Shown: positions 49,361-61,788, numbered from the stretch's first letter. The stretch: DNA of 64,000 nt from an uncultured Candidatus Saccharibacteria bacterium (GCA_964532495.1 CAZHJZ010000003.1:67747-131746), one strand, 5' to 3'. Translations and numbers: made by a program. The notes: generated from the letters alone by a model not told the origin.

Positions 49361-50236
49361 GTGATAAAGATGCGAAAACTTCCATTGTATGCGCTTGCCA
49401 TGGTGGCAATAGTGGTTTTTTGCTTATGGTATTACCTGCTTTCGCAAAAAAGCGGCACCGAGCTGCAAGTTTCGTTTCTTTCTATAGGCCAGGGTGACTC
49501 TACATATATACAGGCTCCAAACGGCAGGCAAATGCTTATTGACGGAGGACCGAGAGGTTCACTGGTTAAAGTTCTCAAGACTGAGATGCCTCCGGGCGAC
49601 ACTTCGATCGATGTTGTACTGCTAACACATCCTGATGCTGACCATTATGCTGGATTGGTGGATCTCCTTAATACATATAGTGTGGGAACGATTATTGAGT
49701 CGGGTAAAACCTCTACTGCCAAAACATATCAAGAATTAGAGAAGTTGATAGCTGAAAAGCGGATATCTAAGGTGATCGCTCGAACTGGCACCACTATTAC
49801 GCTCGATCAAGACAATATAGTGGTGTTTAAGGTGCTATTTCCTAGTGGTGATGTGAGCAATTTGCCGACAAACGACGCTTCAATTGTTGGGCGGCTGACG
49901 TACGGGGCAACTTCGGTGATGTTTACTGGTGATGCCCCAGTTGCTACAGAGAAAATCCTCATTGCCGGTCAAAAACCGGAAGATTTGGCCAGTACTATCC
50001 TCAAAGTTGGCCATCACGGCTCGCGGACATCATCGAGCAGCGCTTTTTTAAAGATTGTGCAGCCCGAGTATGCCATCATTTCTGCCGGCAAAGGCAACCG
50101 CTATGGCCATCCCCATCAAGAAGTCGTTGATCTTTTAAAAAGTTTGGGAATTACTGTGCTGATTACCAAAGATGAAGGAACGATTACCTTTTTTAGTGAT
50201 GGAATTATATTTAGACATAAAGAATCTTCAAAATAA
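49361..50236 (+). CDS. free-standing ComEC-C-terminal-type MBL-fold hydrolase
   Basis: N-terminal TM anchor; LLTHPDADHYAG (HxHxDH), VGHHGS, GHPHQE motifs typical of the ComEC lactamase domain. Confidence 0.65.
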   Translation: MIKMRKLPLYALAMVAIVVFCLWYYLLSQKSGTELQVSFLSIGQGDSTYIQAPNGRQMLIDGGPRGSLVKVLKTEMPPGDTSIDVVLLTHPDADHYAGLVDLLNTYSVGTIIESGKTSTAKTYQELEKLIAEKRISKVIARTGTTITLDQDNIVVFKVLFPSGDVSNLPTNDASIVGRLTYGATSVMFTGDAPVATEKILIAGQKPEDLASTILKVGHHGSRTSSSSAFLKIVQPEYAIISAGKGNRYGHPHQEVVDLLKSLGITVLITKDEGTITFFSDGIIFRHKESSK

Positions 50237-50337
50237 GAGTTTTCCCCAAGAATATTTTATTTCCGTATCCTTCATGGTGCGAGAAGCGTATACTTAGTTG
50301 TATTAATAGCAGTAATTAGTAGAGAGAATTAAGTTAC

Positions 50338-52995
50338 ATGAAAAAATATATATTGGGGCTTATGCTCGCTTTAACCATCACTGGTTACGCAGCACAGGCG
50401 CACGCTGTATCGTTTGACGATCTTCTGCAAGAGATCAACAATCTAAAACAGCAGGTTTCTAATCTTCGAGGAGAACTCGGGGCGGCAGTTTATCGGGCAA
50501 CAGCAATTTCAGCTCAGCCAAAAGCAATGTCGGCGATAAGTACAAATGTAACAGCAGCAATTGCTACACCAGTTGATTTATATGCCCCAGGACTGACGTA
50601 TCGATATGTGGATGGCGGATGTCAGGCATATGACGGTAACGCATGGGTTGGGACTGTAACTTCTACAAATAGAACATGTGGAGCTATCGTCGTACCTACT
50701 CAAGTTTCAGCTAAGGCCGCTTTAGATGCTAAAGCCGGTCTTAATATCGGAGATATGGGGGAGACAACTTCAAATCAGCCAGGAACAACAGTACAATCAA
50801 ATGAACCTACAAAGCCTGAAGTTCCTACTTCATACATTGTAAGCCAACAGCCAACAGTCGTTGCTGCTCCAGCTGTGACTGTATCTTTTACGCACAACCT
50901 TACAATTGGTGAGCGAGGAGCTGAAGTTAAAAAACTCCAGGACGAGCTTGTTAGAAAGGGTTATCTTACATCTGATAACGCAACTAGCTTCTACGGCAAA
51001 GCAACTGCTGCTGCAGTCATGTCTTTCCAGCGAGCAAATGGCATCAATGATGACGGAACAGTTGTTGGTCCAAAGACACAGATGCTTCTCAATGGCGGCG
51101 TAAGCGCCCAGGCACAGACTCCATCAGGAACTGGAACTCCTGCATCAAGCATTTTGCCACCCGGCTGTACTTCATTCGTTGGATATAGCACGTTTAACGG
51201 ACAGCCTTGCGGCGCAAATATTCAAGTTGCTCAGATAGGATGGGTTTGCCAGTTCAATCCAAATGCAGCTCCTAAGCTTAAAGTGACTTCCCCAGATGGA
51301 GGAGAAATATATACAGCTGGTCAGCCGATCACTGTTACTTGGAAAACATGCAACATTCCTTCATCAGCATATGTTGATATTTTCCTGACTTTCCCAGGTA
51401 TTAACCAAGGAGTGAATCTTACTCACACACTCAATGACGGATCACAAGTAGTGACGTTGCCTTCAACCTCAACTTGGGGACAGATGGTGTATGGTCAGAA
51501 CTACAAGATAACAATTGTCGGGGCAGCAACTGATGCATCGGATAATTTGTTTACGATCAATGCCCCAGTTCAGACCATTGCAGTGCTTTCTGTAGCTAAA
51601 AATACTGCGTACGCAAACCAGACGCAGAGTCCTAACACAGCAGGTGTTAAGATCGGGTCATATGTGCTTCAGAACAACAGCACAACTGAAAGCTTCCGCA
51701 TAACTTCATTTGGTGTCGGTATCAGCGGTACTGCTCCACTTTCAGATCTTTCAAACCTCCGTACTTCAGAAACCTCAGGTTCAGGCTCAGTGCCAATCGT
51801 TCCTCAGGCTTCAAACAATTTCGCAGTTAACTTTATTCTTGCTCCAGGAGCATCAAAGATTGTCGACATTTTTGCTGATACAGGATCAGCAAGCGGCGTA
51901 AATGTTGTTACGACACTTTCTGTTACTGGTGTTAGTATGGTAAACAATGTAACTTTGATTCCTGCTGCAACTGGTCAAACAATTACTTTGGCGGCAGGAA
52001 CGCTTATGACTCCTACTCTCATTGTTTCTTCCTCGACTCAGTCACAGTACATTGCTGCTGGTGGTACTGGCGCAACAGACGCAACACGAGCAACATATAA
52101 CCTTACTTCATCAGGCGGATCGGTAACTATTTCTGATCTCAAATTTACTATCTCTGGTTCAGCAGTTAATCCAGTTACTAGTATTAAAGTGAATGGTAGT
52201 TCTGCACCAGTTGTCGCTAATGTTGCTTGGCTCACTGGCCTCAACATTGCTGTTCCGAACGGAGGGGCAGGGACAAATGTAGATGTTTTGGTAAGCTATG
52301 CTCCAGTCGGAACAAATGGAGTTCCATCAAACACTACTGCAGCTATTAGCCTGACATATGTTAAATACAATTCAGGCGGAGTAGTTTCAGTTATGACTCC
52401 TACAATTCCAGCTCCAACTATGACATTGGTTGGATCAAAGCCTACTGTTAGTGTAAACACTGCAGTAACTTCCGGTTTACTCCTAGGTGCTGAAAATAAA
52501 ATTGGCCAAGTTACTCTCACCGCAGATCCAAAAGGAAACATAAAGATAAACGATCTAGCGTTTACCTACAATCTTGCCAACTTCAATTCATTGGCGATCT
52601 CAAATGTTCGAATTGCTGATGGCCTAACCACAGTGCAAGGCACTAGTTGCGGAATCTCTGATGTAACTGATGCAATTTTCTGTGAGTTTGCCATGACAGG
52701 AAACACAATGTCTTCGGGAAATAACAGCTTTAATACCGAATCAAATTTCGATTTTGACGGGTATACAATTGCAGCTGGTACATCGAAAACATTTAACTTG
52801 TACGCGACATTGGTTGGTACATCAAACGGATATGGAATTGTTTCTACCTCATTAAATCGATATGGATTTAATTGGGATGATACTGCAACAGCATCATTTG
52901 TTGGTGACAACATTTCTGCTACTGGCAGCGGTACGAATTTGGGAGCTCAGTTAATCTATAATTTCCCAACTGGCTCGTACTCAATTAGACAGTAA
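50338..52995 (+). CDS. large secreted protein with PG_binding_1 domain (885 aa)
   Basis: Signal peptide; conserved post-signal module VSFDDLLQEINNLKQQVSNLRGELGAAV; PG-binding domain GERGAEVKKLQDELVRKGYL...DGTVVGPKTQ; T/S/G/N-rich remainder. Confidence 0.55.
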   Translation: MKKYILGLMLALTITGYAAQAHAVSFDDLLQEINNLKQQVSNLRGELGAAVYRATAISAQPKAMSAISTNVTAAIATPVDLYAPGLTYRYVDGGCQAYDGNAWVGTVTSTNRTCGAIVVPTQVSAKAALDAKAGLNIGDMGETTSNQPGTTVQSNEPTKPEVPTSYIVSQQPTVVAAPAVTVSFTHNLTIGERGAEVKKLQDELVRKGYLTSDNATSFYGKATAAAVMSFQRANGINDDGTVVGPKTQMLLNGGVSAQAQTPSGTGTPASSILPPGCTSFVGYSTFNGQPCGANIQVAQIGWVCQFNPNAAPKLKVTSPDGGEIYTAGQPITVTWKTCNIPSSAYVDIFLTFPGINQGVNLTHTLNDGSQVVTLPSTSTWGQMVYGQNYKITIVGAATDASDNLFTINAPVQTIAVLSVAKNTAYANQTQSPNTAGVKIGSYVLQNNSTTESFRITSFGVGISGTAPLSDLSNLRTSETSGSGSVPIVPQASNNFAVNFILAPGASKIVDIFADTGSASGVNVVTTLSVTGVSMVNNVTLIPAATGQTITLAAGTLMTPTLIVSSSTQSQYIAAGGTGATDATRATYNLTSSGGSVTISDLKFTISGSAVNPVTSIKVNGSSAPVVANVAWLTGLNIAVPNGGAGTNVDVLVSYAPVGTNGVPSNTTAAISLTYVKYNSGGVVSVMTPTIPAPTMTLVGSKPTVSVNTAVTSGLLLGAENKIGQVTLTADPKGNIKINDLAFTYNLANFNSLAISNVRIADGLTTVQGTSCGISDVTDAIFCEFAMTGNTMSSGNNSFNTESNFDFDGYTIAAGTSKTFNLYATLVGTSNGYGIVSTSLNRYGFNWDDTATASFVGDNISATGSGTNLGAQLIYNFPTGSYSIRQ

Positions 52996-53081
52996 GAAAC
53001 AGGTCTGAAAGACGAGAACTAAAAACACAGAGCGACGCCTGCGGCGTCGCTCTGTGTTTTATTATATCTATACTTTATTTT

Positions 53082-54884
53082 TTAAATGCAGCTATGATTC
53101 CAAATCGTAGTCGGTACTACCGGAGTCTGCATCTGTCCCGGCGGCGGTGTCGTTTCGAGCATGAAGATCATGTCATAGTTTACGAGCTGTTTTTCTTGAG
53201 AATGGCTGGCATTCCATTGTCGGCACAAAAACTTGCCATACCCAAGCCGATACTCTGAGAAATCGCGTCCCCACAGATTCATGAGATATTTCTGCCAACG
53301 CTGGTTCTTGTACATGTATGCGACCCATTCTGGTTTTGCGTACGATACTCCTTCTTTTCCTGAGAAGACATCTACTGCAGTACCATCGGCCAATTTTCCT
53401 GGGAAGACGTACCATCCATCTTCGGTGAGCGGCGTAGGCGCAAACATATTGAATTTTTGATCAAGGTGAGTGAACCAGCCGATACCGAGAAGTTGCGGCG
53501 GAATGATCTGCTTGCTGTTTCCAAGCGTATCAAGATTCCATGCTACTACGTAGAAGGTCAAAAAAATGACGACTAGTGTGACAATTGTTATGCCAGCCTT
53601 TTTCAACCCAGTTGGTTCTTCTTCGGTTGGTTCTGGAATGCATACTTGTTTTCGTTTATGCGAAAGATACGCATACAATTTTTCTCCGAAGAAATTCATA
53701 AACGGAAGACTAAGTATTGGAGCTGTCCAAAAAAAGATTGGTGAATGTCGAACGAGCGCCACCGCTACGCCCCAGCTTGTGTGTGTTGAGCCTTTTTCGT
53801 CGGTAATAACCCAAGAATTCTTTTTCATCATGTATGCCTCAATCGCAGGATCGGTGTGGGCGGGTTTAATTTCAGTTTCTGGATGAAGTAATAATACTCG
53901 CTTCATGAAGAAGCTTGTCTTGTAGCAAAAGCTGCACTCAAAATCATAATACACAGTAAGCCCTTTTTTGCCTTTGGATGCGATCCAACCGGTAAAGCGA
54001 TTCCACCCATCATTCCAAAAACCAGAGGGTAGTAGTCCGAGTGTCACGACAACAGCTATTGCACCGAAGAGACCAAGACGCATGGAGCTATTGAATCCAA
54101 TTTGCAAACAAGCGAATACAAAGATGCCGAATGTTCGGAAAAATCCTGTTGCAACTGGAGAAAAGAAAAGAAGTACTCCATACATTTCTATATACCAGGT
54201 AACATGGGTGAGTACACTCATTGTTCCTGGGAATTCTCGAAGGATCATTCCGACTGGAGCGATTAGCTGATCAACATTGAGCGCGTAGTAGACAGCAGTG
54301 CCATCATGCCAAGCAGTACCAGTTTTTAATAGTCCGGTAAATACATAGAGCAAGCAGATCTGTATTATGTACGCGACTGTAGCCGCAGAGAAAACCGTTT
54401 CCTTGGTTGGCTGGGGAACGCGATTGAACAACCGATCAAGCGACCATACGCGCCCAAGCGGGAGAAACATCATCCAGAAAAGAACAGAACGGAATAGCAC
54501 ATCTCCTCCTTGAAGTACCATTGGGTTTCGGACATGAAGGGAAATAAGAAGGAACCATGAGACAATCATTGCGAGGCGTGTTCGGTATCCAAAAATCAGC
54601 ATAAGGGCGAAGATGCCGGCAATAACGAAAAGCAATGCTTCAAAACCTGTCAGGCCGCTTGCCATATGAATCGAGATCCACCATTTATTTTCCCAGAGGC
54701 GCAAGAGATCTACTCGAGGCAGCACGCCGGCATCTGAGTAAAATGTTCGCAGATCAAATGACCGCTGAATCAGATCAAGAATAATAATGATTCCAGTTCC
54801 GATTCGAAGGACGGCGAGGGAACGATAGTCTAAGGAGAACCATTCTCGAACTTTGCTGATAATCAGGTACGCAATGTTTTTCAT
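53082..54884 (-). CDS. HTTM (gamma-carboxylase-like) membrane domain fused to DCC/DUF393 thiol-disulfide oxidoreductase domain
   Basis: HTTM N-terminus LAVLRIGTGIIIILDLIQRSFDLRTFYSDAGVLP..., multi-TM; DCC motif TVYYDFECSFCYKTSFFMKRV (CxxC); ~200-aa C-terminal extension. Confidence 0.7.
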   Translation of the reverse strand: MKNIAYLIISKVREWFSLDYRSLAVLRIGTGIIIILDLIQRSFDLRTFYSDAGVLPRVDLLRLWENKWWISIHMASGLTGFEALLFVIAGIFALMLIFGYRTRLAMIVSWFLLISLHVRNPMVLQGGDVLFRSVLFWMMFLPLGRVWSLDRLFNRVPQPTKETVFSAATVAYIIQICLLYVFTGLLKTGTAWHDGTAVYYALNVDQLIAPVGMILREFPGTMSVLTHVTWYIEMYGVLLFFSPVATGFFRTFGIFVFACLQIGFNSSMRLGLFGAIAVVVTLGLLPSGFWNDGWNRFTGWIASKGKKGLTVYYDFECSFCYKTSFFMKRVLLLHPETEIKPAHTDPAIEAYMMKKNSWVITDEKGSTHTSWGVAVALVRHSPIFFWTAPILSLPFMNFFGEKLYAYLSHKRKQVCIPEPTEEEPTGLKKAGITIVTLVVIFLTFYVVAWNLDTLGNSKQIIPPQLLGIGWFTHLDQKFNMFAPTPLTEDGWYVFPGKLADGTAVDVFSGKEGVSYAKPEWVAYMYKNQRWQKYLMNLWGRDFSEYRLGYGKFLCRQWNASHSQEKQLVNYDMIFMLETTPPPGQMQTPVVPTTIWNHSCI

Positions 54885-54953
54885 ATGTGGAAGTATACCA
54901 AACTGTGCATTACTCTAATAGCAGGGTAATTGCCTCGGTGATACAATATATAC

Positions 54954-55541
54954 ATGCAACAGCAAAACACGGTAACAAATTTCCTTTTGGGAATTATCGC
55001 GATCGCATTAGTATTAATTGTGATTTTTTTATTCGTACAAAAGAAGCCTGTAGTTCAGATGCAGAATCAGGATATGTATGGACAGCGGCCAGAGGTTCCT
55101 TTGAACAATCAAAATACTGGAACAATGCAGAATACAACAGGAACACAGGCTAACAGTCCGATTGTTTCTGTAAACAGCTCACAAAGCCAAACGTATCCGA
55201 TAACAGCTATTGCAACAAATAGCGATGATCCTCACATAGCAGGTGCTATCCCTGGTTCAAATGAACCGGCAAATTTTAACGGGCACTATAATGTAGTATT
55301 TATTGGCTGCGGATCAGGATGTGCGAATCCTGCGTTATATGACAGAACAAGCCGTACAATGTACAACTTCCCAGCAGCAATGCTGAGCGGAGCTCTTGCG
55401 GATAATGGCGCTATGGCAGATATTCCTTGGATGAGTTATGACGTAGCAAGTCCTGCTATCAGTCTTAAGAAAAAGAATTCAGCTGGAGCTTTATATATTG
55501 AGCAGTGGAAAATGGTAGGTAGTGGTTTTGTTAAACAATAA
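54954..55541 (+). CDS. membrane-anchored/secreted hypothetical protein
   Basis: TM anchor FLLGIIAIALVLIVIFLFV, Gln/Asn/Thr-rich linker, Cys pair GCGSGC. Confidence 0.4.
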   Translation: MQQQNTVTNFLLGIIAIALVLIVIFLFVQKKPVVQMQNQDMYGQRPEVPLNNQNTGTMQNTTGTQANSPIVSVNSSQSQTYPITAIATNSDDPHIAGAIPGSNEPANFNGHYNVVFIGCGSGCANPALYDRTSRTMYNFPAAMLSGALADNGAMADIPWMSYDVASPAISLKKKNSAGALYIEQWKMVGSGFVKQ

Positions 55542-55562
55542 GAAGGTTACGTGTAATTAATA

Positions 55563-55598
55563 CAAAGAGCGCGCGGGCTTCGCCCGCGCGCTCTTTGT
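55563..55598 (+). terminator. rho-independent terminator
   Basis: aaagagcgcgcgggc-ttcg-cccgcgcgctcttt. Confidence 0.85.
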
Positions 55599-55604
55599 AT
55601 TTCA

Positions 55605-55633
55605 TTGCTAATCCACCTAAGCTATGGGATACT
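55605..55633 (+). promoter_or_regulatory. conserved promoter (TTGCTA-17-GATACT), copy 1 of 3
   Basis: Same -35/-10 hexamers and 17-bp spacing as at 57717 and 59687; ATG start ~9 nt after the -10. Confidence 0.55.
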
Positions 55634-55641
55634 TTTCTCAT

Positions 55642-57690
55642 ATGAAACCATCATTTGCATTGCTAACTCTTTCAGTTGTAGCACTCGGCTTTCTTAGCAT
55701 CGCTCCCATTCATGACTTGAAAACTATTGGTCAAAACAGTCCCGCTGCAGTTCTCGCAGGCTTGCGTGCAGCTACAGACCGTACAATATATACTCCGAAG
55801 ACAATGGAAGGGGTTCTCGAGGTTACTCACTTCGATGACTTCAATTCAGGAGAAAATACTCCTGTCGTCGATCTTGTCACCAAAACAGGCACAGTCCATG
55901 TAGATATTGGAACAATTGATCATGATCAATTACCTGTTTCTGGTTCGACGGTCCGTATCAATGGCAGTTATGGAAACAATACGCTTAAGATTTCCGAGCT
56001 CGCTTCAGTAACTGAATTGAAAAGTGCACCTCAGACGCCAGGAGCAACATTGACTGGAAGCCGTTCTAATCCTACTCCGAAAAAAATATCAATCGTCCTA
56101 TTTAACTACAGCAACGATCCAGGCCAGCCGTTTACCAAGGAAGACGTCCGTAAGACATATTTCGAACCGAATGCAGACTCAGGCATCACCATGTCAGAGT
56201 TCTTGAAAAAATCTACGTATGACCAAATGTCGCTAGAAGGAAAGACATCCGTGAATGGAACGACTGATGTCTGGGGATGGTATACACTTCCAATAACTAG
56301 AACTCATTGTGATTCAGCGCCAGAACTAGTAACAAACGGCCATCGCGCGATCGCTATGGCAGTGCAAGCTGGTATGCAAGTTGGTCCTGATGATATTGTC
56401 GCCGTAGGAACATTTCCATATAGTGGCTGTACTACTGGCGGAGTTGTGTCAGTAGGCAATGCCGGGACTGCTCAGTATCGATCTATACATATGTCCAATA
56501 TGCTTGCATGGGGAGGAGCATTGCATGAGCTTGCTCATATTTCAAAAATTATTCCAGCTACGAGTAGTTTTAATACATCGAATTTTTTACAGCATTCAAA
56601 CGCGTTTGAATGTGTACTTGCTGGTGTTACTGTACCGTATGATACACAAGGTTCAACCTGTGCTATACATGAGTACGCTAGTCCATTTAGTATTCTGGGT
56701 GGATATACTTCTGGAGCCATGCGGGCACGCCTTATGGATGGACAGAACAGAATTGAGGGAGGATATCTCGGAATAAGTAATATTGTCGGTGGTGGAGCGA
56801 CAGGAGGAACATATGATTTAACGAAAGTTAATTACACCGATGCACAGATTTTACGGATACCAATTTATGTACAGCCGATATATTTGAATGGGACGAGAAT
56901 ACATACAGGCCGATCTGCTTATATTGAAGTGGAACCGCGAGATTTTCTTCCATTTGAACAAGCCGCTGATACATTTCCTAACACTGATGTTGTACTTATT
57001 CGCTGGAAAAGAGGTAGTGACTTTTCCGCATTGCTGCGACCCAAGTTAAATAGCAGGTTGCTTGCCCCTGGTCAATCATTTTACATTCCAAGCCTCGGAA
57101 CTACGATAACAAACCAAGGAGCCACGCCCGGTAATAACCGCAAAGTTCGAGTAACTGCTACATATGATACTGGCTCAATAACAGAAATTGAGCCGCAAAA
57201 GATCACATTCGGGTCAATTACTCCACAAAAAACGACTATCCAATCTTCGGGATCATTTGCGCACCCAATGCTTGCAGGTACGATTACAGGAGAATGGGGA
57301 GATCTAGTAGTTTGGCCGCATGACCCTGTTCGAATTTTCCCAGTAGGAGGCAGTCAACCTCTCGACGCTGTTATTGCATCATCCATGAACGGCTGGTCAG
57401 CGCAAGGCATACCGACGGGAACAAATAATTTTAATTTGGACGTATTAGGTGCTTTACATATTAGCCCTACCAAGCTTGTTGGGCAGAGCCGTTCTATTTA
57501 TAAGATAATGGTGAATATTAATCCTTTTAGTTTTAACACTCTTGTACCTGATGTGCCCATCTATCTAATGTATGGAACATTTTCATTTCAAGAACTTACG
57601 AATCTGGGAGTAATAACGATGCCAACTCCAACGGCAGCACAAATCAATCTCACTGGTGCTACGCAGGCGACATTCCCACGACAAAAATAG
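55642..57690 (+). CDS. secreted protein with HExxH motif (putative zinc metallopeptidase)
   Basis: Signal peptide MKPSFALLTLSVVALGFLSIAP; LAWGGALHELAHI contains HExxH; start trimmed from ORF 55624 (MGYFSH extension is promoter DNA). Confidence 0.45.
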   Translation: MKPSFALLTLSVVALGFLSIAPIHDLKTIGQNSPAAVLAGLRAATDRTIYTPKTMEGVLEVTHFDDFNSGENTPVVDLVTKTGTVHVDIGTIDHDQLPVSGSTVRINGSYGNNTLKISELASVTELKSAPQTPGATLTGSRSNPTPKKISIVLFNYSNDPGQPFTKEDVRKTYFEPNADSGITMSEFLKKSTYDQMSLEGKTSVNGTTDVWGWYTLPITRTHCDSAPELVTNGHRAIAMAVQAGMQVGPDDIVAVGTFPYSGCTTGGVVSVGNAGTAQYRSIHMSNMLAWGGALHELAHISKIIPATSSFNTSNFLQHSNAFECVLAGVTVPYDTQGSTCAIHEYASPFSILGGYTSGAMRARLMDGQNRIEGGYLGISNIVGGGATGGTYDLTKVNYTDAQILRIPIYVQPIYLNGTRIHTGRSAYIEVEPRDFLPFEQAADTFPNTDVVLIRWKRGSDFSALLRPKLNSRLLAPGQSFYIPSLGTTITNQGATPGNNRKVRVTATYDTGSITEIEPQKITFGSITPQKTTIQSSGSFAHPMLAGTITGEWGDLVVWPHDPVRIFPVGGSQPLDAVIASSMNGWSAQGIPTGTNNFNLDVLGALHISPTKLVGQSRSIYKIMVNINPFSFNTLVPDVPIYLMYGTFSFQELTNLGVITMPTPTAAQINLTGATQATFPRQK

Positions 57691-57716
57691 ACTGTCTGTA
57701 TTGTGGACTACTTGAA

Positions 57717-57745
57717 TTGCTAACCCGTATCTCATATGGGATACT
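57717..57745 (+). promoter_or_regulatory. conserved promoter (TTGCTA-17-GATACT), copy 2 of 3
   Basis: ttgcta-acccgtatctcatatgg-gatact, then tttcactat ATG. Confidence 0.55.
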
Positions 57746-57753
57746 TTCACTAT

Positions 57754-59616
57754 ATGAAAAAATACATAGTCGGACTCCTAAGCGCGTTCCTGATTCTTGG
57801 GTCGGTTTCGGTCGCGCAAGCTGCCACTCTTGATGATTTGTGGAATCAAGTTTCGACTTTAAGACAACAAATTATTGAACTGCGAAGTGAGCTTGGAGCA
57901 GCTGTTTCTCGAGCAATCACGTCAACGGCTGCATTAAAAGTAATAAGTCCTGATTATCAGCCTGTGACTGAAGCACAAGTTTTAACAAAAACTACGCCAA
58001 GCGTAACCGCAAACGCGGTTTTAATGCCAGCTACAACATTTACTGCAACAGTGGGGAGTGCCGTAGTTCCCGTAAATCCTGCACCAACCCCAGCACAGGG
58101 GCCAATAATTATACCAGGAGGAGTACAGCAAACGGTCCTATACATGCTTGGAGGTTTAAGTTTTAATGGGCCTGTGAATTCGCAAGCACCCCCACTTAAC
58201 GATGTTTATAAATCTACTGACGGAGAAAACTGGCAATTGATTTCTGCAGACACGGCAAACCCGGTTAATAAATGGAATCGAACAGATACAAGCGGTATAG
58301 GTGTGTATTTTAATGGATACTTATGGATCATTGGCGGATCGGATTGTCCCGCAATCTATGGTCCATGCGCGCCGGTTACGAATCACGTATGGCGTTCATC
58401 TGACGGTATAACATGGACAAAAATGGCTAATGCCCCATGGCTTGCTAGAAGAGGTCATACTGTCACTGTATTTGATAATAAAATTTGGGTGATGGGAGGC
58501 GACACTGCATATTCTCTTGTTTCAGATGTTTGGTCATTTGATGGTACTACATGGACGCAAGCATCACCGCAGGCTCCATGGCAGCCACGATTTGTTTCCC
58601 AATCAATTGTATTCAATGGAAAATTATGGGTTATTGGAGGACAAGCAGTTCAGAATAATTCTCAGATCTCGCTTTCAGACACATGGTCTTCAACTAACGG
58701 TGTAACATGGACACAAGGAGCTGCTAGTTCTGGATGGGGGCCCTCTGTTAATTTTTCTGCTCTTGTTTTCCAAAATAAAATGTGGGTACTGGGTGGCGCT
58801 TTTATGATTCCTGGAAGCCACTCAGGAGTTTGGTCGTCTACCGATGGCGTAACTTGGACGCAAGTACAGGCTAACCCTGCCTGGTTGTATGCCGCGCAAA
58901 ATACAACGAATGGACGCCAGGGTCTGCAGTCGTATGTTCTCAATAATAAAATGTATGTTTTGGGCGGTAGCCCTGGACAGCTCTCATACAATGCAAATCA
59001 AGACATTTGGTCATCTGTTGACGGAGTGAACTGGACACAGAGTGTTGTTCCTGGAATTTCTACACGCCGTACCCAGCATATTGTAATCACAGGCAAGCAA
59101 CCGGTCCAAGTTTTTTCTTCCGGAACATCCGGACCTATTCTGTGGCAAGGGAATCCGACAAGGCCTCTGACCCCCACTGTTCAGTCTTTATTGGTAAAAC
59201 CCGATTTGATAGTAGATAGTTTCAGCTGGACTCCTCAGTCTCCTCGCGTAACTTCGATCAATCCAGTAACTGCGCCTACTCCAAACCCAAATCCAAATTT
59301 CCAATTTACTGTACGAATTAAAAATATCGGTACTGCACCCGCAGTACTTCCTCGAGAAACTGAAGTAAGTGTTTCATCAGGAGGCATTAGCTATGGAGCT
59401 ACAAATTTCTTCTACGGTTCGATTACTCTTCAACCAGGACAAACATATGATGTTGTCGTTTATCAAACAGCTAATCCAAATATTTTGGCAACCGCACGAA
59501 CTCTTACACTTGTTGCAACGGTAGATGCGTATGGAAGCGGAACCACTTACAAAATGGTTGATGAATCGGATGAAACAAACAATACATTGAATAAAGTTTT
59601 TACGATATTGCCGTAA
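57754..59616 (+). CDS. secreted Kelch-repeat beta-propeller protein
   Basis: Signal MKKYIVGLLSAFLILGSVSVAQA; conserved module ATLDDLWNQVSTLRQQIIELRSELGAAV; at least 5 repeats of GH..VVF.NK[IL]WV[IM]GG...DVWSS.DG..WT. Confidence 0.55.
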   Translation: MKKYIVGLLSAFLILGSVSVAQAATLDDLWNQVSTLRQQIIELRSELGAAVSRAITSTAALKVISPDYQPVTEAQVLTKTTPSVTANAVLMPATTFTATVGSAVVPVNPAPTPAQGPIIIPGGVQQTVLYMLGGLSFNGPVNSQAPPLNDVYKSTDGENWQLISADTANPVNKWNRTDTSGIGVYFNGYLWIIGGSDCPAIYGPCAPVTNHVWRSSDGITWTKMANAPWLARRGHTVTVFDNKIWVMGGDTAYSLVSDVWSFDGTTWTQASPQAPWQPRFVSQSIVFNGKLWVIGGQAVQNNSQISLSDTWSSTNGVTWTQGAASSGWGPSVNFSALVFQNKMWVLGGAFMIPGSHSGVWSSTDGVTWTQVQANPAWLYAAQNTTNGRQGLQSYVLNNKMYVLGGSPGQLSYNANQDIWSSVDGVNWTQSVVPGISTRRTQHIVITGKQPVQVFSSGTSGPILWQGNPTRPLTPTVQSLLVKPDLIVDSFSWTPQSPRVTSINPVTAPTPNPNPNFQFTVRIKNIGTAPAVLPRETEVSVSSGGISYGATNFFYGSITLQPGQTYDVVVYQTANPNILATARTLTLVATVDAYGSGTTYKMVDESDETNNTLNKVFTILP

Positions 59617-59650
59617 CGTTCTTGGTTTTAGGCAAAAATACTATTTCATA

Positions 59651-59683
59651 AACAGGCCGGGCGCGAAGCGTCCGGCTTGTTTT
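59651..59683 (+). terminator. rho-independent terminator
   Basis: aaacaggccgggcgc-gaa-gcgtccggcttgtttt. Confidence 0.8.
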
Positions 59684-59686
59684 GCA

Positions 59687-59715
59687 TTGCCAACTTCCAA
59701 AACCCATGAGATACT
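59687..59715 (+). promoter_or_regulatory. conserved promoter (TTGCCA-17-GATACT), copy 3 of 3
   Basis: ttgcca-acttccaaaacccatga-gatact, then ttaatcat ATG. Confidence 0.5.
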
Positions 59716-59723
59716 TTAATCAT

Positions 59724-60686
59724 ATGAAAAAATATCTAATCGTATTCGTCCTTGTTGGTTCAGTGGTAATTGGTGCGCAGTCAGCAAAAGCCGTATCATT
59801 CGACGACCTCTCTGCTGCCATCGCCAGCCTCTCGCAGGAAGTTAGCAGTTTGAAAAGCCAAATACTTGAAGTGACATTGGGAAGCATGACGGCACAAGCA
59901 TTGCCTGGTGCGCAAGCAGCAAGCTCATATGTTTTTAGTCAGAATCTTCAGACAGGATCACAGGGTGCCGCTGTTCTCAATCTTCAAAACACACTTATTG
60001 CTCAGGGATATTTGCCGGCTGGTTCAGCGACTGGATACTATGGAAATCTTACAGCAGAAGCAGTTTCGCATTTCCAGAGTGCGAACAATCTTCCAGCTCT
60101 TGGTGTCGTTGGGTCACAAACAAATCATATCCTTAACCTGCAAAGTGCAGTTATTGGTGGCGGTGGAACGATTAGTTCATCAAACAACTTTCAAACAGGA
60201 ACATACCAGGCGGGCGTAGGAGCTCAGTCTGGAGTGATCGGAGCAAGCGGTACAGTAAGCGGAACAGGAGCTCATACTTCAAGCGGTGTGGTGCCAGCGC
60301 AATCATCAGGGTCACAAACTGGATCAATAAATATTGATGCGCAGGCCAATGCCGCGAAGTCTCAGACAAATTCATATGGAAGTACTGGGACCGGCAGCGC
60401 TACAGTTGGAACACTTTCAGCTACAGCTGCTCCAGGAACATTTACATTTACACACGTGCTTCAGTACGGAGAGAAAGGCGATGAAGTAAAAAAATTCCAG
60501 CTCTGGTTGAATACTAAAGGATATCTTGCATTAGATAATGCTACTGGATTTTATGGAATGAAAACAGTTGCTGGGGTAAAAGCTTTGCAAATCGCAAACG
60601 GAGTTCCGACTGGAGATGGAACTGCTGTCGGTCCTAAGACTCAGGCAGCTATTGCAAAAGGAGTAGTAATGGGATCTGTACGATAA
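59724..60686 (+). CDS. secreted protein with two PG_binding_1 domains
   Basis: Signal MKKYLIVFVLVGSVVIGAQSAKA; module VSFDDLSAAIASLSQEVSSLKSQ; PG-binding repeats AAVLNLQNTLIAQGYL... and DEVKKFQLWLNTKGYL...DGTAVGPKTQ. Confidence 0.6.
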   Translation: MKKYLIVFVLVGSVVIGAQSAKAVSFDDLSAAIASLSQEVSSLKSQILEVTLGSMTAQALPGAQAASSYVFSQNLQTGSQGAAVLNLQNTLIAQGYLPAGSATGYYGNLTAEAVSHFQSANNLPALGVVGSQTNHILNLQSAVIGGGGTISSSNNFQTGTYQAGVGAQSGVIGASGTVSGTGAHTSSGVVPAQSSGSQTGSINIDAQANAAKSQTNSYGSTGTGSATVGTLSATAAPGTFTFTHVLQYGEKGDEVKKFQLWLNTKGYLALDNATGFYGMKTVAGVKALQIANGVPTGDGTAVGPKTQAAIAKGVVMGSVR

Positions 60687-60741: not shown

Positions 60742-60984
60742 TTAGAGAATTCCAGCTTTCTTGAGAGTTGCGAATGCTCCTCGCTTTGCGATAGTGCGGA
60801 TTGCGCGAGTAGTGATCTCGAGAGTGATGTATTTCTTGAGTTCAGGTACGTACACCTTTTTCTTCTGGAGGTTTGGGTACTTGCGTACTTTTCCAGTTGG
60901 GTTGAATTTGGTTGCACGAACACGGTTGGAGTAACCCCCAGCGACGCGTGAACCTGTTTTTGTGATTGGACAGACTTTTGCCAT
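60742..60984 (-). CDS. rpmB: 50S ribosomal protein L28
   Basis: MAKVCPITKTGSRVAGGYSNRVRATKFNPTGKVRKYPN...; start trimmed to MAKVC. Confidence 0.8.
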   Translation of the reverse strand: MAKVCPITKTGSRVAGGYSNRVRATKFNPTGKVRKYPNLQKKKVYVPELKKYITLEITTRAIRTIAKRGAFATLKKAGIL

Positions 60985-61080
60985 ATGTCCCAGTACACTA
61001 ACATATAGGATTGAAATGTGCAACTCTTATCTTTCAACTATGATGCGAAAGGCCAATTAAAACGCAATTCTGTAGTGGGT

Positions 61081-61788
61081 TTAGAGCTTGAAGCCTGTGA
61101 GCACTGAATACAAGGCCGTCATAAGGGGAGATATGAAGTCATACTTCCAAAGTACAATAACAAGTATGAAAACGAGGATAAAGCCGCTTCGTTCAAGAGT
61201 ATCGCGAACTCCTCGTAGGCTTTGCGGCAGGAGAGAAAAGAGGATTTTGGAGCCATCGAGCGGGGGAACAGGTAAAAGGTTAAAGAATGCTAGGCCTATG
61301 TTGGCCAAGATGATGATGGATACAATATATAGGAAAGCATCATTGGCAAAGCCGAAGGCAACGCCAATACGGAATACCATTCCAAAAATAAAGGCAATAA
61401 GGAGGTTGGCCAAGATACCGGCAGAAGCTACTGCAAGAGTACCCCAGCGTTTGTTTGAAAGGTTATTTTCGTTGTAAGGCACTGGACGAGCCCAGCCGAA
61501 GGGGAATGGAGACCCGGAAATGATAAGAATGGCTGGTACGAGGATCGTACCGACAAGGTCTACGTGACGAAGTGGGTTGAGTGTGAGACGGTGGGCTAAT
61601 TCTGCTGTCCGATCCCCAAACCACAGTGCCATGTACCCGTGGGAGACCTCGTGGGCAACCACAGAGAGGATTATGATAGCAATACTCGCAATTTGCGTAA
61701 CGGTGTCATTCATGCCTTGAAGTATAGCAAGCGGGGTTCCTTTCCCAAAACTTGCATTATTCCAAGCTATCTTGTATAGTACAGCCAC
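61081..61788 (-). CDS. site-2 protease (peptidase M50) family membrane metalloprotease
   Basis: HEVSHGY (HExxH) in TM context, NPLRHVDLVG, polytopic. Confidence 0.7.
   Translation of the reverse strand: MAVLYKIAWNNASFGKGTPLAILQGMNDTVTQIASIAIIILSVVAHEVSHGYMALWFGDRTAELAHRLTLNPLRHVDLVGTILVPAILIISGSPFPFGWARPVPYNENNLSNKRWGTLAVASAGILANLLIAFIFGMVFRIGVAFGFANDAFLYIVSIIILANIGLAFFNLLPVPPLDGSKILFSLLPQSLRGVRDTLERSGFILVFILVIVLWKYDFISPLMTALYSVLTGFKL

What the first reader, a model, noticed from the sequence alone, without database searches (positions are those of the whole stretch)
50338..60686. HTTM-DCC fusion enzyme embedded in a paralogous family of secreted PG-binding / Kelch / HExxH proteins
The 53082-54884 protein joins a vitamin-K-dependent-carboxylase-like HTTM membrane domain to a DCC/DUF393 CxxC thiol-disulfide oxidoreductase domain. 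This is formally analogous to eukaryotic gamma-carboxylase plus a redox partner, and to HTTM proteins implicated in maturation of secreted bacterial peptides. It is flanked on both sides by large exported proteins: 50338 (PG-binding), 54954, 55642 (HExxH), 57754 (Kelch propeller) and 59724 (2x PG-binding). Three of these share a post-signal module (VSFDDL...L[KR]xQ...L...ELGAAV). The neighbourhood suggests an extracytoplasmic protein-modification or cell-wall-associated system whose substrates may be the adjacent secreted proteins.
Basis: inference. Interest (0 to 1): 0.6.

Follow-up and report, generated by a model that had tools for sequence, protein, structure and literature searches.

The report
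Widespread GGCX-like enzyme, incidental neighbours
The gene at 53082-54884 encodes one member of a very large, uncharacterised family of membrane enzymes related to the human vitamin-K-dependent carboxylase and carrying an inserted thioredoxin-like domain, but the secreted-protein genes around it are a lineage-specific insertion, not a conserved partner set.

Summary
The 600-aa protein has an HTTM membrane domain, a DCC1-like CxxC domain, and a TM helix plus a ~150-aa C-terminal domain. Five exported or membrane-anchored proteins flank it, and three share a post-signal helix.

The enzyme belongs to a large family found in CPR, DPANN archaea, Cyanobacteria, Acidobacteria, Chloroflexi and Proteobacteria. 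Its only significant structural match is human GGCX. The GGCX catalytic Lys (K218 = K187) is invariant, its acidic partner (D263 = E233) is 96% conserved, and F299 = F273 is invariant. The GGCX Glu-pocket residues are not conserved. By GGCX topology the DCC domain is an optional insertion in the cytoplasmic TM8-TM9 loop.

- In 16 of 21 syntenic CPR relatives the gene lies within about 110 bp of rpmB (L28), with no secreted-protein genes between them.
- PG-binding neighbours occur in none of the roughly 60 loci outside the CPR/unclassified group.
- All five neighbours are on the opposite strand, and a strong terminator separates one of them from the enzyme gene.
- The neighbours are Glu-poor.

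The only conserved linkage is cyanobacterial: an acyl-ligase/ACP/MBOAT/flavoprotein envelope-acylation cluster.

Verdict: a new member of a known but unstudied family, of modest interest.

The parts
53082..54884 (-). Gene for the 600-aa HTTM / DCC1-like / C-terminal-domain membrane protein (stop codon 53082-53084). It is monocistronic.
   Evidence: ORF. Pfam HTTM above its gathering score, DCC1-like E about 1e-4. 563 homologs. AF2 model pLDDT 95.4, pTM 0.92. GGCX is the only significant fold match.
53979..54884 (-). HTTM (GGCX-like) membrane domain, aa 1-302, predicted TM1-TM8. Includes the K187 codon (54324-54326), W192, E233 (54186-54188) and F273 (54066-54068).
53610..53978 (-). DCC1-like thioredoxin-fold domain, aa 303-425, with the CxxC motif C317-C320 (53925-53936). 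Inserted between TM8 and the last TM, so inferred to be cytoplasmic.
   Evidence: Pfam PF04134 in 20 of 21 homologs. CxxC is 97% conserved. Exactly this segment is missing in P0034 and P0089. Topology is inferred from GGCX TM1-9.
53085..53609 (-). Last TM helix (aa 426-454) plus the conserved alpha/beta C-terminal domain (aa 455-600). It has the invariant motif LDQxWNMFAPxPLxEDGWYV, the RWQKY motif, and two invariant Cys (C554, C599). Inferred to be extracytoplasmic.
53022..53060 (.). Perfect 18-bp-stem hairpin flanked by A and T runs. A bidirectional terminator between the convergent p50338 and HTTM-DCC genes.
54885..54953 (.). 69-bp divergent intergenic region between HTTM-DCC and p54954. 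It holds an extended -10-like TGGTATACT 7 nt before the HTTM-DCC ATG.
   Evidence: Sequence read. The motif is generic in this genome.
50338..52995 (+). Secreted 885-aa protein: signal peptide, post-signal helix (50407-50490), one PG_binding_1 domain, and a long unannotated C-terminal region. A variable-island gene, not part of the enzyme's conserved context.
   Evidence: Orthologs only in L002 and L008.
54954..55541 (+). 195-aa protein with an N-terminal TM anchor and no family match, followed by a 20-bp-stem hairpin at 55559-55601.
   Evidence: The only match is a 72-aa ORF in L002.
55642..57690 (+). 682-aa exported orphan protein with a single HELAH motif.
   Evidence: No Pfam, NCBIfam or PDB match. 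No homolog among 5.8 billion proteins.
57754..59616 (+). Secreted 620-aa protein: signal peptide, post-signal helix (57823-57906), Kelch beta-propeller, CARDB.
   Evidence: Orthologs in L002 and L010 only.
59724..60686 (+). Secreted 320-aa protein: signal peptide, post-signal helix (59793-59876), two PG_binding_1 domains.
60742..61023 (-). rpmB (ribosomal protein L28), a syntenic anchor. In 16 of 21 related CPR loci it lies within about 110 bp of the HTTM-DCC gene; here it is 5.86 kb away.
49361..50236 (+). Metallo-beta-lactamase-fold (ComEC-associated) gene, the syntenic anchor on the other side. It is directly adjacent to HTTM-DCC in 11 of 16 relatives; here p50338 is inserted between them.

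Best explanation
The 53082-54884 gene encodes a stand-alone member of a very large, experimentally uncharacterised family of prokaryotic GGCX-like (HTTM) membrane enzymes.

**Anatomy.** Eight TM helices form a GGCX-type cofactor pocket. An invariant Lys (K187) sits at the outer end of TM5 and pairs with a conserved Glu (E233). A DCC1-like thioredoxin-fold CxxC domain is inserted in the cytoplasmic TM8-TM9 loop. A ninth TM helix leads to a conserved extracytoplasmic domain carrying two invariant Cys.

**Most likely mechanism (inferred).** As in GGCX and the giant-virus 'gamma-carboxylase-like epoxidases', K187/E233 deprotonates a membrane quinol. Oxygenation of the quinol then yields a strong base or oxidant at the outer membrane face. 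That acts on a substrate held by the C-terminal domain. The cytoplasmic CxxC domain is an accessory that feeds reducing equivalents back to the cofactor, or senses redox state.

**Likely substrate (inferred).** More probably an envelope lipid, glycolipid or acyl group than a Glu-rich protein.

**The flanking genes.** The PG-binding, Kelch and HExxH genes are not its partners. They are lineage-specific cell-surface genes that accumulated at a permissive site on both sides of a syntenically fixed gene, in the backbone S7-S12-M50-L28 | HTTM-DCC | MBL-SOD-ComEC-RNaseH-RecJ.

**Shown:** family membership, fold, conserved catalytic residues, the optional nature of DCC, and the lack of conserved linkage. 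**Inferred:** topology, cofactor, chemistry and substrate class. The confidence of 0.7 applies to the shown part. The inferred mechanism and substrate class would rate about 0.35.
For: **Family and fold**
- 563 homologs, full-length at 35-72% identity, across CPR, Acidobacteria, Chloroflexi and Cyanobacteria.
- At least 445 loci in GTDB species genomes, including DPANN archaea and Proteobacteria.
- The C-terminal domain is present in 4,599 representatives at 50% identity.
- The AF2 model has pLDDT 95.4.
- GGCX is the only significant structural hit.
- The family profile hits only GGCX among PDB sequences, at E = 2e-5.

**Active site**
- K187 aligns with K218 (100% conserved), E233 with D263 (96%), F273 with F299 (100%) and G271 with G297 (100%). 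W192 is also invariant.
- The roles of the GGCX residues come from PMC12589487 and PMC13486548. The latter reports that D263E keeps 25% activity and that viral epoxidases carry E at this position.
- The same residues (Lys189, Trp195, Phe273) are highlighted for a split HTTM-DCC + DUF5819 pair in bioRxiv 10.64898/2026.08.19.745780.

**DCC is optional**
- It is precisely absent in P0034 and P0089.
- Many representatives of about 470-530 aa lack it.

**Neighbours are incidental**
- Synteny and insertion analysis.
- Opposite strands plus a terminator.
- Non-secreted genes occupy the same insertion sites in L011, L015 and L018.
- The neighbours contain 1.3-3.1% Glu.

**Substrate class**
- In 13 cyanobacterial loci the homolog is embedded in a cluster of acyl-AMP ligase, ACAD-like, ACP, MBOAT, a Pyr_redox_2 flavoprotein, DUF1574 and GT genes. 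The gene order is rearranged between Nostocales and Oscillatoriales, yet the linkage is kept.
Against: - No biochemical data exist for any member.
- CPR bacteria are generally described as lacking respiratory capacity (abstract of PMC5220378). A quinol cofactor would therefore have to be scavenged, or be something else. This genome's quinone genes were not examined.
- Topology is inferred from GGCX homology and hydropathy, not measured. Model coordinates could not be inspected.
- GGCX N290 has no clean equivalent: N265 is one column off and only 58% conserved.
- PG-binding or module-bearing proteins lie within about 3 kb of the gene in roughly 10 of 22 syntenic CPR loci (WIN included). That is more than a random genomic position would give. 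These loci share ancestry, so they are not independent events.
- The cyanobacterial context may not transfer to CPR.
Confidence: 0.7

Rival explanations
1. The HTTM-DCC enzyme modifies the adjacent secreted proteins. The shared post-signal helix ([VT][ST][FL]DDL...LGAAV) acts like the GGCX propeptide, which also lies directly after the signal peptide. It docks the substrate so that nearby Asp or Glu residues can be carboxylated.
For: - Three flanking proteins, plus their orthologs in L002, L008 and L010, share the helix immediately after the signal-peptide cleavage site, with an invariant DDL.
- PG-binding or Kelch proteins recur next to the gene in six related genomes: WIN, L002, L003, L008, L010 and L031.
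- HTTM enzymes are reported to carboxylate Asp as well as Glu: MloH, as cited in the preprint.
- The active-site Lys faces the outside, by homology.
Against: - The linkage is absent in 16 of 21 syntenic CPR relatives and in every locus outside the CPR/unclassified group.
- The flanking genes are on the opposite strand, separated by a terminator on one side and a divergent gap on the other.
- The shared promoter-like motif is generic: it also precedes the RNase H gene.
- The proteins are Glu-poor, at 1.3-3.1%.
- The positions aligned to the GGCX Glu-pocket residues N158/N159/H160 are Q/G/G.
- L003's adjacent protein has a variant helix (ATISEL) without DD.
- p55642 and p54954 lack the module.
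- The enzyme family is abundant in phyla where no such module was seen nearby.
Confidence: 0.1
2. A transmembrane thiol-redox relay. The cytoplasmic DCC CxxC takes electrons from thioredoxin or NADPH and passes them through a quinone bound in the HTTM domain to the extracytoplasmic Cys pair (C554/C599). This would reduce or isomerise disulfides in exported proteins. It would be functionally like DsbD/CcdA, or like the proposed role of LMF1 in ER redox homeostasis.
For: - CxxC is 97% conserved and C554/C599 are 100% conserved, on opposite predicted faces of the membrane.
- The membrane domain shows weak LMF1 similarity in 2 of 21 members.
- A Pyr_redox_2 flavoprotein lies 30 bp upstream in cyanobacteria.
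- The link between LMF1 and ER redox homeostasis is recalled from my own knowledge and was not checked here.
Against: - DCC-less variants keep C554/C599 and all the membrane-domain invariants. The Cys pair therefore looks like a structural disulfide, and the core function does not need the CxxC.
- P0084 lacks the CxxC.
- There are no conserved Cys in the TM helices.
- The invariant K187/E233/W192/F273 set is the GGCX catalytic and quinol-binding set, not a thiol-relay signature.
Confidence: 0.1
3. A true protein gamma-glutamyl carboxylase, acting on unlinked Gla-type substrates encoded elsewhere in the genome.
For: The fold and the catalytic Lys/acid pair are shared with GGCX. The C-terminal domain occupies the position of the GGCX substrate-binding luminal domain.
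Against: - The columns aligned to the Glu-pocket residues N158/N159/H160 hold Q/G/G, in a low-confidence region.
- The C-terminal domain, at about 145 aa, is far smaller than the GGCX luminal domain and is not significantly similar to it.
- Viral homologs with the same K/E pair are interpreted as epoxidases only.
- The Leptospira ortholog is reported to epoxidise without carboxylating (own knowledge, Rishavy et al. 2005, not checked here).
Confidence: 0.07

Closest known systems
[quoted passage not shown]
   Same: The only significant fold match and the only PDB sequence hit. Shares the nine-TM plan, with the catalytic Lys at the outer end of TM5 (K218 = K187), an acidic partner (D263 = E233), the pocket Phe (F299 = F273), and an extracytoplasmic domain after the last TM.
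   Different: 12-13% identity. The Glu-pocket residues are not conserved. The extracytoplasmic domain is about 145 aa, against about 350 aa, and is not detectably similar. A DCC thioredoxin-fold domain is inserted in the TM8-TM9 loop. It lacks the C99-C450 type disulfide and has its own invariant C554/C599 pair.
Split bacterial HTTM+DCC1-like protein with an adjacent TM+DUF5819 protein (Melghirimyces thermohalophilus; bioRxiv 10.64898/2026.08.19.745780)
   Same: The same HTTM, then DCC1-like, order. The same highlighted residues (Lys189, Trp195, Phe273). A TM helix plus small domain completes a GGCX-like assembly.
   Different: Here all the parts are one polypeptide. The C-terminal domain does not score as Pfam DUF5819 in the window protein, in 21 homologs, or in 10 further representatives. 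Homology to DUF5819 is therefore unproven.
Giant-virus gamma-carboxylase-like epoxidases and epoxidase-desaturase fusions (VKED; PMC13486548)
   Same: An HTTM core that retains the catalytic Lys and has Glu at the D263 position but lacks the carboxylation determinants. The core is proposed to drive lipid modification rather than protein carboxylation. This parallels the cyanobacterial acyl/MBOAT context found here.
   Different: The viral proteins are truncated or fused to a desaturase, and pair with VKOR. This family instead has a DCC insertion and its own C-terminal domain.
MloH (malonomycin biosynthesis, Law et al. 2018, as cited)
   Same: A bacterial HTTM enzyme with a fused C-terminal region. 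It acts on a non-Gla substrate: an Asp in a carrier-protein-bound intermediate.
   Different: No sequence was available to compare here. MloH sits in a PKS-NRPS cluster. No DCC domain is reported for it.
LMF1 (lipase maturation factor) and SdpB (B. subtilis SDP toxin maturation)
   Same: Members of the HTTM superfamily. They are membrane proteins implicated in the maturation of secreted proteins or peptides.
   Different: LMF1 matches are weak, below the gathering score, and confined to the membrane region in 2 of 21 homologs. No NCBIfam model of any kind matches the window protein. That SdpB has an NCBIfam model (TIGR04033) is my recollection and was not confirmed.
Bacterial VKOR-thioredoxin fusions and DsbB
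   Same: A quinone-binding membrane domain fused to a thioredoxin-fold CxxC domain.
   Different: In VKOR fusions the Trx domain and the catalytic Cys face outward. Here the CxxC domain is predicted to be cytoplasmic, the membrane domain has no conserved Cys, and the fold is GGCX-like rather than VKOR-like.

Membership tests
HTTM superfamily (Pfam PF05090) | Profile score at or above the Pfam gathering score | tested here: met
   30.9 bits against 27.7. 11 of 21 homologs match, the best at E = 1.6e-11.
GGCX-type enzyme | GGCX transmembrane fold | tested here: met
GGCX-type enzyme | Catalytic base K218 with its acidic partner D263 | tested here: met
   K187 aligns to K218 and is 100% conserved. 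E233 aligns to D263 and is 96% conserved, a conservative D-to-E change as in the viral epoxidases.
GGCX-type enzyme | Vitamin K pocket residues (F299, N290) | tested here: inconclusive
   F273 aligns to F299 and is invariant. N290 aligns one column from N265, which is only 58% conserved.
Protein gamma-glutamyl carboxylase (function) | Glu-binding pocket N158/N159/H160 (plus Y395 and R436) | tested here: not met
   The aligned columns hold Q125/G126/G127 (78-90% conserved), in a low-confidence stretch of the alignment. Y395 and R436 could not be aligned.
Protein gamma-glutamyl carboxylase (function) | Luminal propeptide-binding domain | tested here: inconclusive
DCC1-like thiol-disulfide oxidoreductase (Pfam PF04134 / DUF393) | Profile match and an N-terminal CxxC | tested here: met
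   The window protein is below the gathering score (22.5-23.6 against 27.8 bits). However, 20 of 21 homologs match, with scores up to 41.6 bits. CxxC is 97% conserved.
DUF5819 (C-terminal domain) | Match to the Pfam DUF5819 model | tested here: not met
   No match in the window C-terminal region at E <= 10, in 21 homologs, or in 10 further representatives including short forms.
SdpB-type antimicrobial-peptide maturation protein | Match to an NCBIfam SdpB-family model | tested here: not met
   No NCBIfam family matches at E <= 0.01. That an SdpB model exists in NCBIfam (TIGR04033) is recalled from memory.
LMF1 (Pfam PF06762) | Profile score at or above the gathering score | tested here: not met
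   Only 2 of 21 homologs match, at 18.9-20.2 bits against 27, and only in the membrane region.
Proposed 'HTTM-DCC + secreted PG-binding/Kelch' system | Gene neighbourhood conserved across genomes | tested here: not met
   Among 85 distinct loci, PG-binding neighbours occur in 11: WIN, nine syntenic CPR relatives, and L027 (an unclassified MAG). In 16 of 21 syntenic loci L28 abuts the gene. There are no operon links.
Proposed 'HTTM-DCC + secreted PG-binding/Kelch' system | Glu-rich or Cys motif in the shared N-terminal module | tested here: not met
   The module has 0-3 Glu and no Cys. Only DDL and one further Leu are invariant after the signal peptide. The whole proteins contain 1.3-3.1% Glu.
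GGCX-type enzyme | Quinol- and O2-dependent epoxidase activity | not testable with these tools
   Requires biochemistry.

The most novel reading that the evidence does not exclude
CPR and DPANN episymbionts are generally held to lack respiratory chains. They may nevertheless keep a GGCX-like enzyme that uses a scavenged, host-derived quinol. In this lineage the enzyme would carboxylate, or otherwise modify, the invariant Asp-Asp of a propeptide-like helix placed directly after the signal peptide of cell-wall-binding surface proteins. That would be a bacterial counterpart of propeptide-directed vitamin-K-dependent modification.
Probability: 0.06. Interest if true: 0.8.

Novelty: new member of a known kind. 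Interest (0 to 1): 0.3.

Why it matters
**For this finding.** The proposed system dissolves. The enzyme is a syntenically fixed, monocistronic gene, and its neighbours are a variable island of surface-protein genes.

**What remains of value** concerns the family rather than this locus.
- Thousands of prokaryotic proteins keep the GGCX catalytic Lys/acid pair and the quinol-pocket Phe, plus a C-terminal domain that no Pfam model covers.
- Many carry a cytoplasmic thioredoxin-fold insertion.
- No member has a known function.
- The family occurs in genome-reduced CPR and DPANN organisms. In cyanobacteria it sits in a conserved acyl-carrier/MBOAT/flavoprotein envelope cluster.
- That cluster offers a genetically tractable route, through Anabaena or Nostoc, to finding out what bacterial GGCX-like enzymes do.

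Tried and rejected
- **Pfam and NCBIfam on all flanking proteins.** Nothing for p54954 or p55642. p55642 also has no PDB sequence match and no homolog among 5.8 billion proteins. The idea that its HExxH marks a metalloprotease could be neither supported nor placed in a family.
- **C-terminal domain as DUF5819.** No Pfam match in any of 32 sequences tried.
- **afdb50 fold search.** This would have shown DUF5819 and UniProt names, but the library was unavailable.
- **Profile of the post-signal module against the large protein collection.** It returned only one fragment. The query has too little power for this to be used as evidence either way.
- **Co-regulation through a shared promoter.** The conserved 5' cassette of 55642, 57754 and 59724 contains an extended -10 element. 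That element also precedes the RNase H gene and, with different spacing, HTTM-DCC. It is therefore generic.
- **Mobile-element origin of the island.** No tRNA genes, no flanking direct repeats and no composition shift.
- **LMF1 similarity as a clue to the C-terminal domain.** The weak hits lie in the membrane region.
- **Model coordinates.** Distances such as CxxC to K187, and the superposition on GGCX, could not be measured.

Full report
**1. What is in the sequence**

The minus-strand ORF 53082-54884 encodes 600 aa.
- Pfam HTTM scores above its gathering score: 30.9 against 27.7 bits, aa 19-262.
- DCC1-like scores just below its own: 22.5-23.6 against 27.8 bits, E about 1e-4, aa 311-414. A CSFC motif sits at C317/C320.
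- The last 175 residues have no Pfam match even at E <= 10.

The flanking plus-strand ORFs are these:
- p50338: 885 aa, one PG_binding_1 domain.
- p54954: 195 aa, an N-terminal TM anchor, no family.
- p55642: 682 aa, one HELAH motif, no family.
- p57754: 620 aa, a Kelch propeller plus CARDB.
- p59724: 320 aa, two PG_binding_1 domains.

The post-signal motif [AV][ST][FL]DDL...LGAAV occurs in exactly three proteins of the 64-kb window. An all-against-all BLAST shows that the five proteins share only modules: a signal peptide plus helix (aa 1-74, 37-46% identity) in three, and PG_binding_1 in two. p54954 and p55642 share nothing with the rest at protein level.

**2. The enzyme belongs to a very large family**

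- A search of 5.8 billion proteins returned 563 homologs, aligned end to end at 35-72% identity. Sources name them 'DUF393 domain-containing', 'HTTM domain-containing' or 'DCC family thiol-disulfide oxidoreductase YuxK'.
- A scan of one genome per GTDB species confirmed at least 445 loci. They come from CPR lineages, Woese- and Nanoarchaeota, Cyanobacteria (Nostoc, Anabaena, Coleofasciculus, Microcoleus and others), Acidobacteria, Chloroflexi, delta-, gamma- and alpha-proteobacteria, Planctomycetia and Omnitrophota.
- DCC1-like is detected in 20 of 21 diverse members (best E = 1e-12) and HTTM in 11 of 21.
- A profile of the C-terminal 180 residues finds 4,599 representatives at 50% identity, 1,260 of them at E <= 1e-30. 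Lengths cluster near 600 aa, near 470-530 aa and near 160-250 aa.
- The ~500-aa forms (P0034 from a CPR organism, P0089 from Eremiobacterota) lack precisely residues ~303-425, which is the DCC domain. They keep everything else.

The core of the family is therefore the HTTM domain, a TM helix and the C-terminal domain. DCC is an optional insertion.

**3. Relation to GGCX**

An AlphaFold2 model built on 100 homologs is very confident: mean pLDDT 95.4, pTM 0.92.
- Foldseek against the PDB returns only human GGCX structures as significant: E down to 8e-8, probability 1.00, about 590 aligned columns, TM-score about 0.42.
- The family profile hits only GGCX among 177,635 PDB sequences, at E = 2e-5 over GGCX residues 63-311.

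In that alignment, family residues correspond to GGCX residues as follows:

| Family residue | GGCX residue | Conservation in 100 homologs |
|---|---|---|
| K187 | K218 | 100% |
| E233 | D263 | 96% |
| F273 | F299 | 100% |
| G271 | G297 | 100% |
| W192 | (not assigned) | 100% |

The published roles are these. K218 is the base that deprotonates vitamin K hydroquinone, and it is assisted by D263. F286, F294 and F299 line the cofactor pocket. N158, N159, H160, Y395 and R436 form the Glu pocket (PMC12589487; PMC13486548).

The columns aligned to N158/N159/H160 hold Q125/G126/G127 in this family, although that part of the alignment is of low confidence. N290 has no clean counterpart.

The same situation is described for the giant-virus 'gamma-carboxylase-like epoxidases': Lys retained, Glu in place of D263, carboxylation determinants missing. 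Those enzymes are proposed to drive lipid desaturation rather than protein carboxylation.

**4. Topology and the DCC domain**

GGCX has nine TM helices, a cytosolic N-terminus and a luminal C-terminal domain. K218 lies at the luminal end of TM5.

The model's helices map onto this plan:
- TM1: 20-42
- TM2: 79-98
- TM3: 102-119
- TM4: 126-138
- TM5: 167-185
- Cap loop: 186-218
- TM6: 219-241
- TM7: 246-267
- TM8: ~270-302
- TM9: 426-454

The DCC domain (303-425) therefore replaces the short cytosolic TM8-TM9 loop and should be cytoplasmic. The C-terminal domain, with two invariant Cys (C554, C599), should be outside the cell.

This is inference from homology, not measurement. It does mean that the CxxC domain is on the opposite face from both the active-site Lys and any exported substrate. 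The analogy with VKOR, whose catalytic Cys face the lumen, is therefore loose.

**5. The C-terminal extension**

A 2026 preprint describes split systems: an HTTM+DCC1-like protein next to a TM+DUF5819 protein. Their predicted complex resembles whole GGCX, with conserved Lys189, Trp195 and Phe273. That architecture is the closest described relative.

The window's C-terminal domain does not score as DUF5819, however. Neither do the C-terminal domains of 21 homologs or of 10 further representatives, short forms included.

Its equivalence to the GGCX luminal domain or to DUF5819 is thus positional only. As a domain family it is large and has no Pfam model.

**6. The neighbourhood test**

I compared 85 distinct loci: 84 fetched loci plus the window.

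In the CPR clade closest to the window, 21 fetched loci share a backbone with it: EF-G, S7, S12, M50, L28 | HTTM-DCC | MBL, SOD, ComEC, RNase H, RecJ, HIT, PGK.
- L28 lies within about 110 bp of the enzyme gene in 16 of 21 loci. In five of those the enzyme gene is inverted in place.
- The MBL gene abuts the other end in 11 of 16 loci.
- In the window, 5.86 kb (four genes) is inserted on the L28 side, and 2.85 kb (p50338) on the MBL side.

Orthologs of the window's flanking proteins are rare:
- p50338 has orthologs only in L002 and L008.
- p57754 has orthologs only in L002 and L010.
- p54954 matches only a 72-aa ORF in L002.
- p55642 has no homolog in any locus, nor in the 5.8-billion-protein collection.

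Using an HMM built from the window's PG_binding domains, PG-binding proteins lie within 10 kb in only 11 of 85 loci. These are the window, nine of the 21 syntenic CPR relatives, and L027, a MAG labelled only 'uncultured bacterium'. No locus from Cyanobacteria, Acidobacteria, Chloroflexi, Proteobacteria, DPANN or other CPR groups has one.

The same insertion sites hold non-secreted genes in L011, L015 and L018. L003's adjacent PG-binding protein carries a variant helix, ATISELEKIIADLRAQVAELQ, without the Asp pair.

In the window itself:
- All five flanking genes are on the opposite strand from the enzyme gene.
- A perfect hairpin with an 18-bp stem (53022-53060) separates the enzyme gene from the convergent p50338.
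- Only a 69-bp divergent gap separates it from p54954.
- The 5' cassette shared by 55642, 57754 and 59724 contains an extended -10 element placed about 8 nt before the ATG. That element also precedes the RNase H gene and, with 7-nt spacing, HTTM-DCC. It is therefore a generic promoter form, not a regulon mark.
- The flanking proteins contain 1.3-3.1% Glu, and the module has no Cys.

One caveat remains. Surface-protein genes recur near this gene in about ten syntenic CPR genomes, more often than a random position would predict. Shared ancestry and a permissive intergenic site explain this adequately, but a lineage-specific functional link is not strictly excluded.

**7. The one conserved linkage**

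Thirteen cyanobacterial loci share a different set of neighbours.
- **Anabaena subtropica (L081).** A co-directional run: acyl-AMP ligase, ACAD-like, ACP, MBOAT, a 310-aa unknown, HTTM-DCC.
- **Coleofasciculus (L059).** A 20-kb co-directional cluster: acyl-AMP ligase, ACAD-like, ACP, MBOAT, two unknowns, a full-length Pyr_redox_2 flavoprotein ending 30 bp before HTTM-DCC, HTTM-DCC, a second MBOAT, an Omp-like protein, DUF1574, a GT-C-like protein, two GT2 genes and a methyltransferase.

The linkage persists despite the rearrangement between these two lineages, which argues for functional coupling. The cluster points to acylation or modification of an envelope lipid, glycolipid or polysaccharide. 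An NAD(P)H flavoprotein lies next to the GGCX-like enzyme, which would fit a supply of reducing equivalents to a quinone or to the CxxC domain. That last step is inference.

**8. Best explanation and rivals**

The best explanation (confidence 0.7) covers family membership, fold, catalytic residues, the optional DCC domain and the incidental neighbours. The gene encodes a stand-alone GGCX-like membrane enzyme. Its flanking genes are a lineage-specific island.

The mechanistic layer is inferred and less certain, at about 0.35. K187/E233 would activate a membrane quinol at the outer face, generating a strong base or oxidant. That would act on a substrate bound by the C-terminal domain, more likely a lipid or acyl group than a protein. 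The cytoplasmic DCC domain would recycle or sense redox state.

An open problem is the cofactor. CPR organisms are generally reported to lack respiratory capacity (abstract of PMC5220378), and this genome's quinone genes were not examined.

Rivals:
- A transmembrane thiol relay, 0.10. The DCC-less variants that keep both outer Cys disfavour it.
- A true Gla-forming carboxylase acting on unlinked substrates, 0.07.

**9. Novelty and score**

The HTTM+DCC combination is already annotated in public databases, and its split form has been discussed in a preprint. The window's protein is therefore a new member of a known but unstudied kind, and the proposed multi-gene system is not supported.

Useful by-products are listed here:
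- DCC is shown to be an optional insertion in the TM8-TM9 loop.
- The C-terminal domain family is large and has no Pfam model.
- The cyanobacterial acyl/MBOAT/flavoprotein linkage gives a tractable route to function.

Interest: 0.3.

Noticed in passing
L059:606-20880 (Coleofasciculus sp. LEGE 07092), L081:3403-11779 (Anabaena subtropica), and 11 further cyanobacterial loci: The HTTM-DCC homolog is embedded in a conserved co-directional cluster: acyl-AMP ligase, ACAD-like, ACP, one or two MBOATs, a Pyr_redox_2 flavoprotein ending 30 bp upstream, DUF1574, a GT-C-like protein, GT2 genes and a methyltransferase. This is the only conserved linkage found for the family, and it points to envelope lipid or glycan acylation.
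   Followed up: partly
window 53085-53609 (aa 426-600 of the enzyme): The C-terminal TM-plus-domain module defines a family of 4,599 representatives at 50% identity. No Pfam model matches it and it has no significant solved-structure relative. It contains a near-invariant LDQxWNMFAPxPLxEDGWYV motif and two invariant Cys.
   Followed up: yes
P0034, P0089 and many ~470-530-aa representatives: Variants of the enzyme without the DCC domain are common. The deletion is precise (aa ~303-425 replaced by a ~30-aa linker). One cyanobacterial member, P0084, keeps the domain but has lost the CxxC.
   Followed up: partly
window 55642-57690: A 682-aa exported protein with a single HELAH motif has no detectable homolog in a 5.8-billion-protein collection, nor in any of the 85 related loci. 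It is a lineage-specific orphan.
   Followed up: partly
window 55624-55665, 57736-57777, 59706-59747 (weaker at 50320-50361): A conserved 5' cassette (TTG(C/A)AT, 17 nt, TG(G/A)GATACT, about 8 nt, ATGAAA) precedes three flanking genes. This implies near-leaderless transcripts and duplication of a promoter-plus-signal-peptide module. A looser form also precedes the RNase H gene (45789) and HTTM-DCC.
   Followed up: partly
window 53022-53060 and 55559-55601: Two perfect hairpins with 18-bp and 20-bp stems and similar arm sequences (AAAACACAGAGCGACGCC and AATACAAAGAGCGCGCGGGC). They lie after the convergent p50338 / HTTM-DCC pair and after p54954. They may be a repeated terminator element.
   Followed up: no
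window 61081-61788 (M50 peptidase) relative to 60742-61023 (L28): In the window the M50 gene is co-directional with L28. In L001, L002 and the other relatives with the main arrangement, it is divergent from L28. This is a local inversion next to the inserted island.
   Followed up: no
L021, L022, L025, L028, L030: In five CPR relatives the HTTM-DCC gene is inverted in place. It is convergent with L28 instead of downstream of it, yet still lies within about 55 bp. Position is conserved but operon structure is not.
   Followed up: no
L038, L045, L046: Full-length homologs at about 40% identity occur in DPANN archaea (Woesearchaeota, Nanoarchaeota). This suggests transfer between ultra-small episymbiotic bacteria and archaea.
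   Followed up: no
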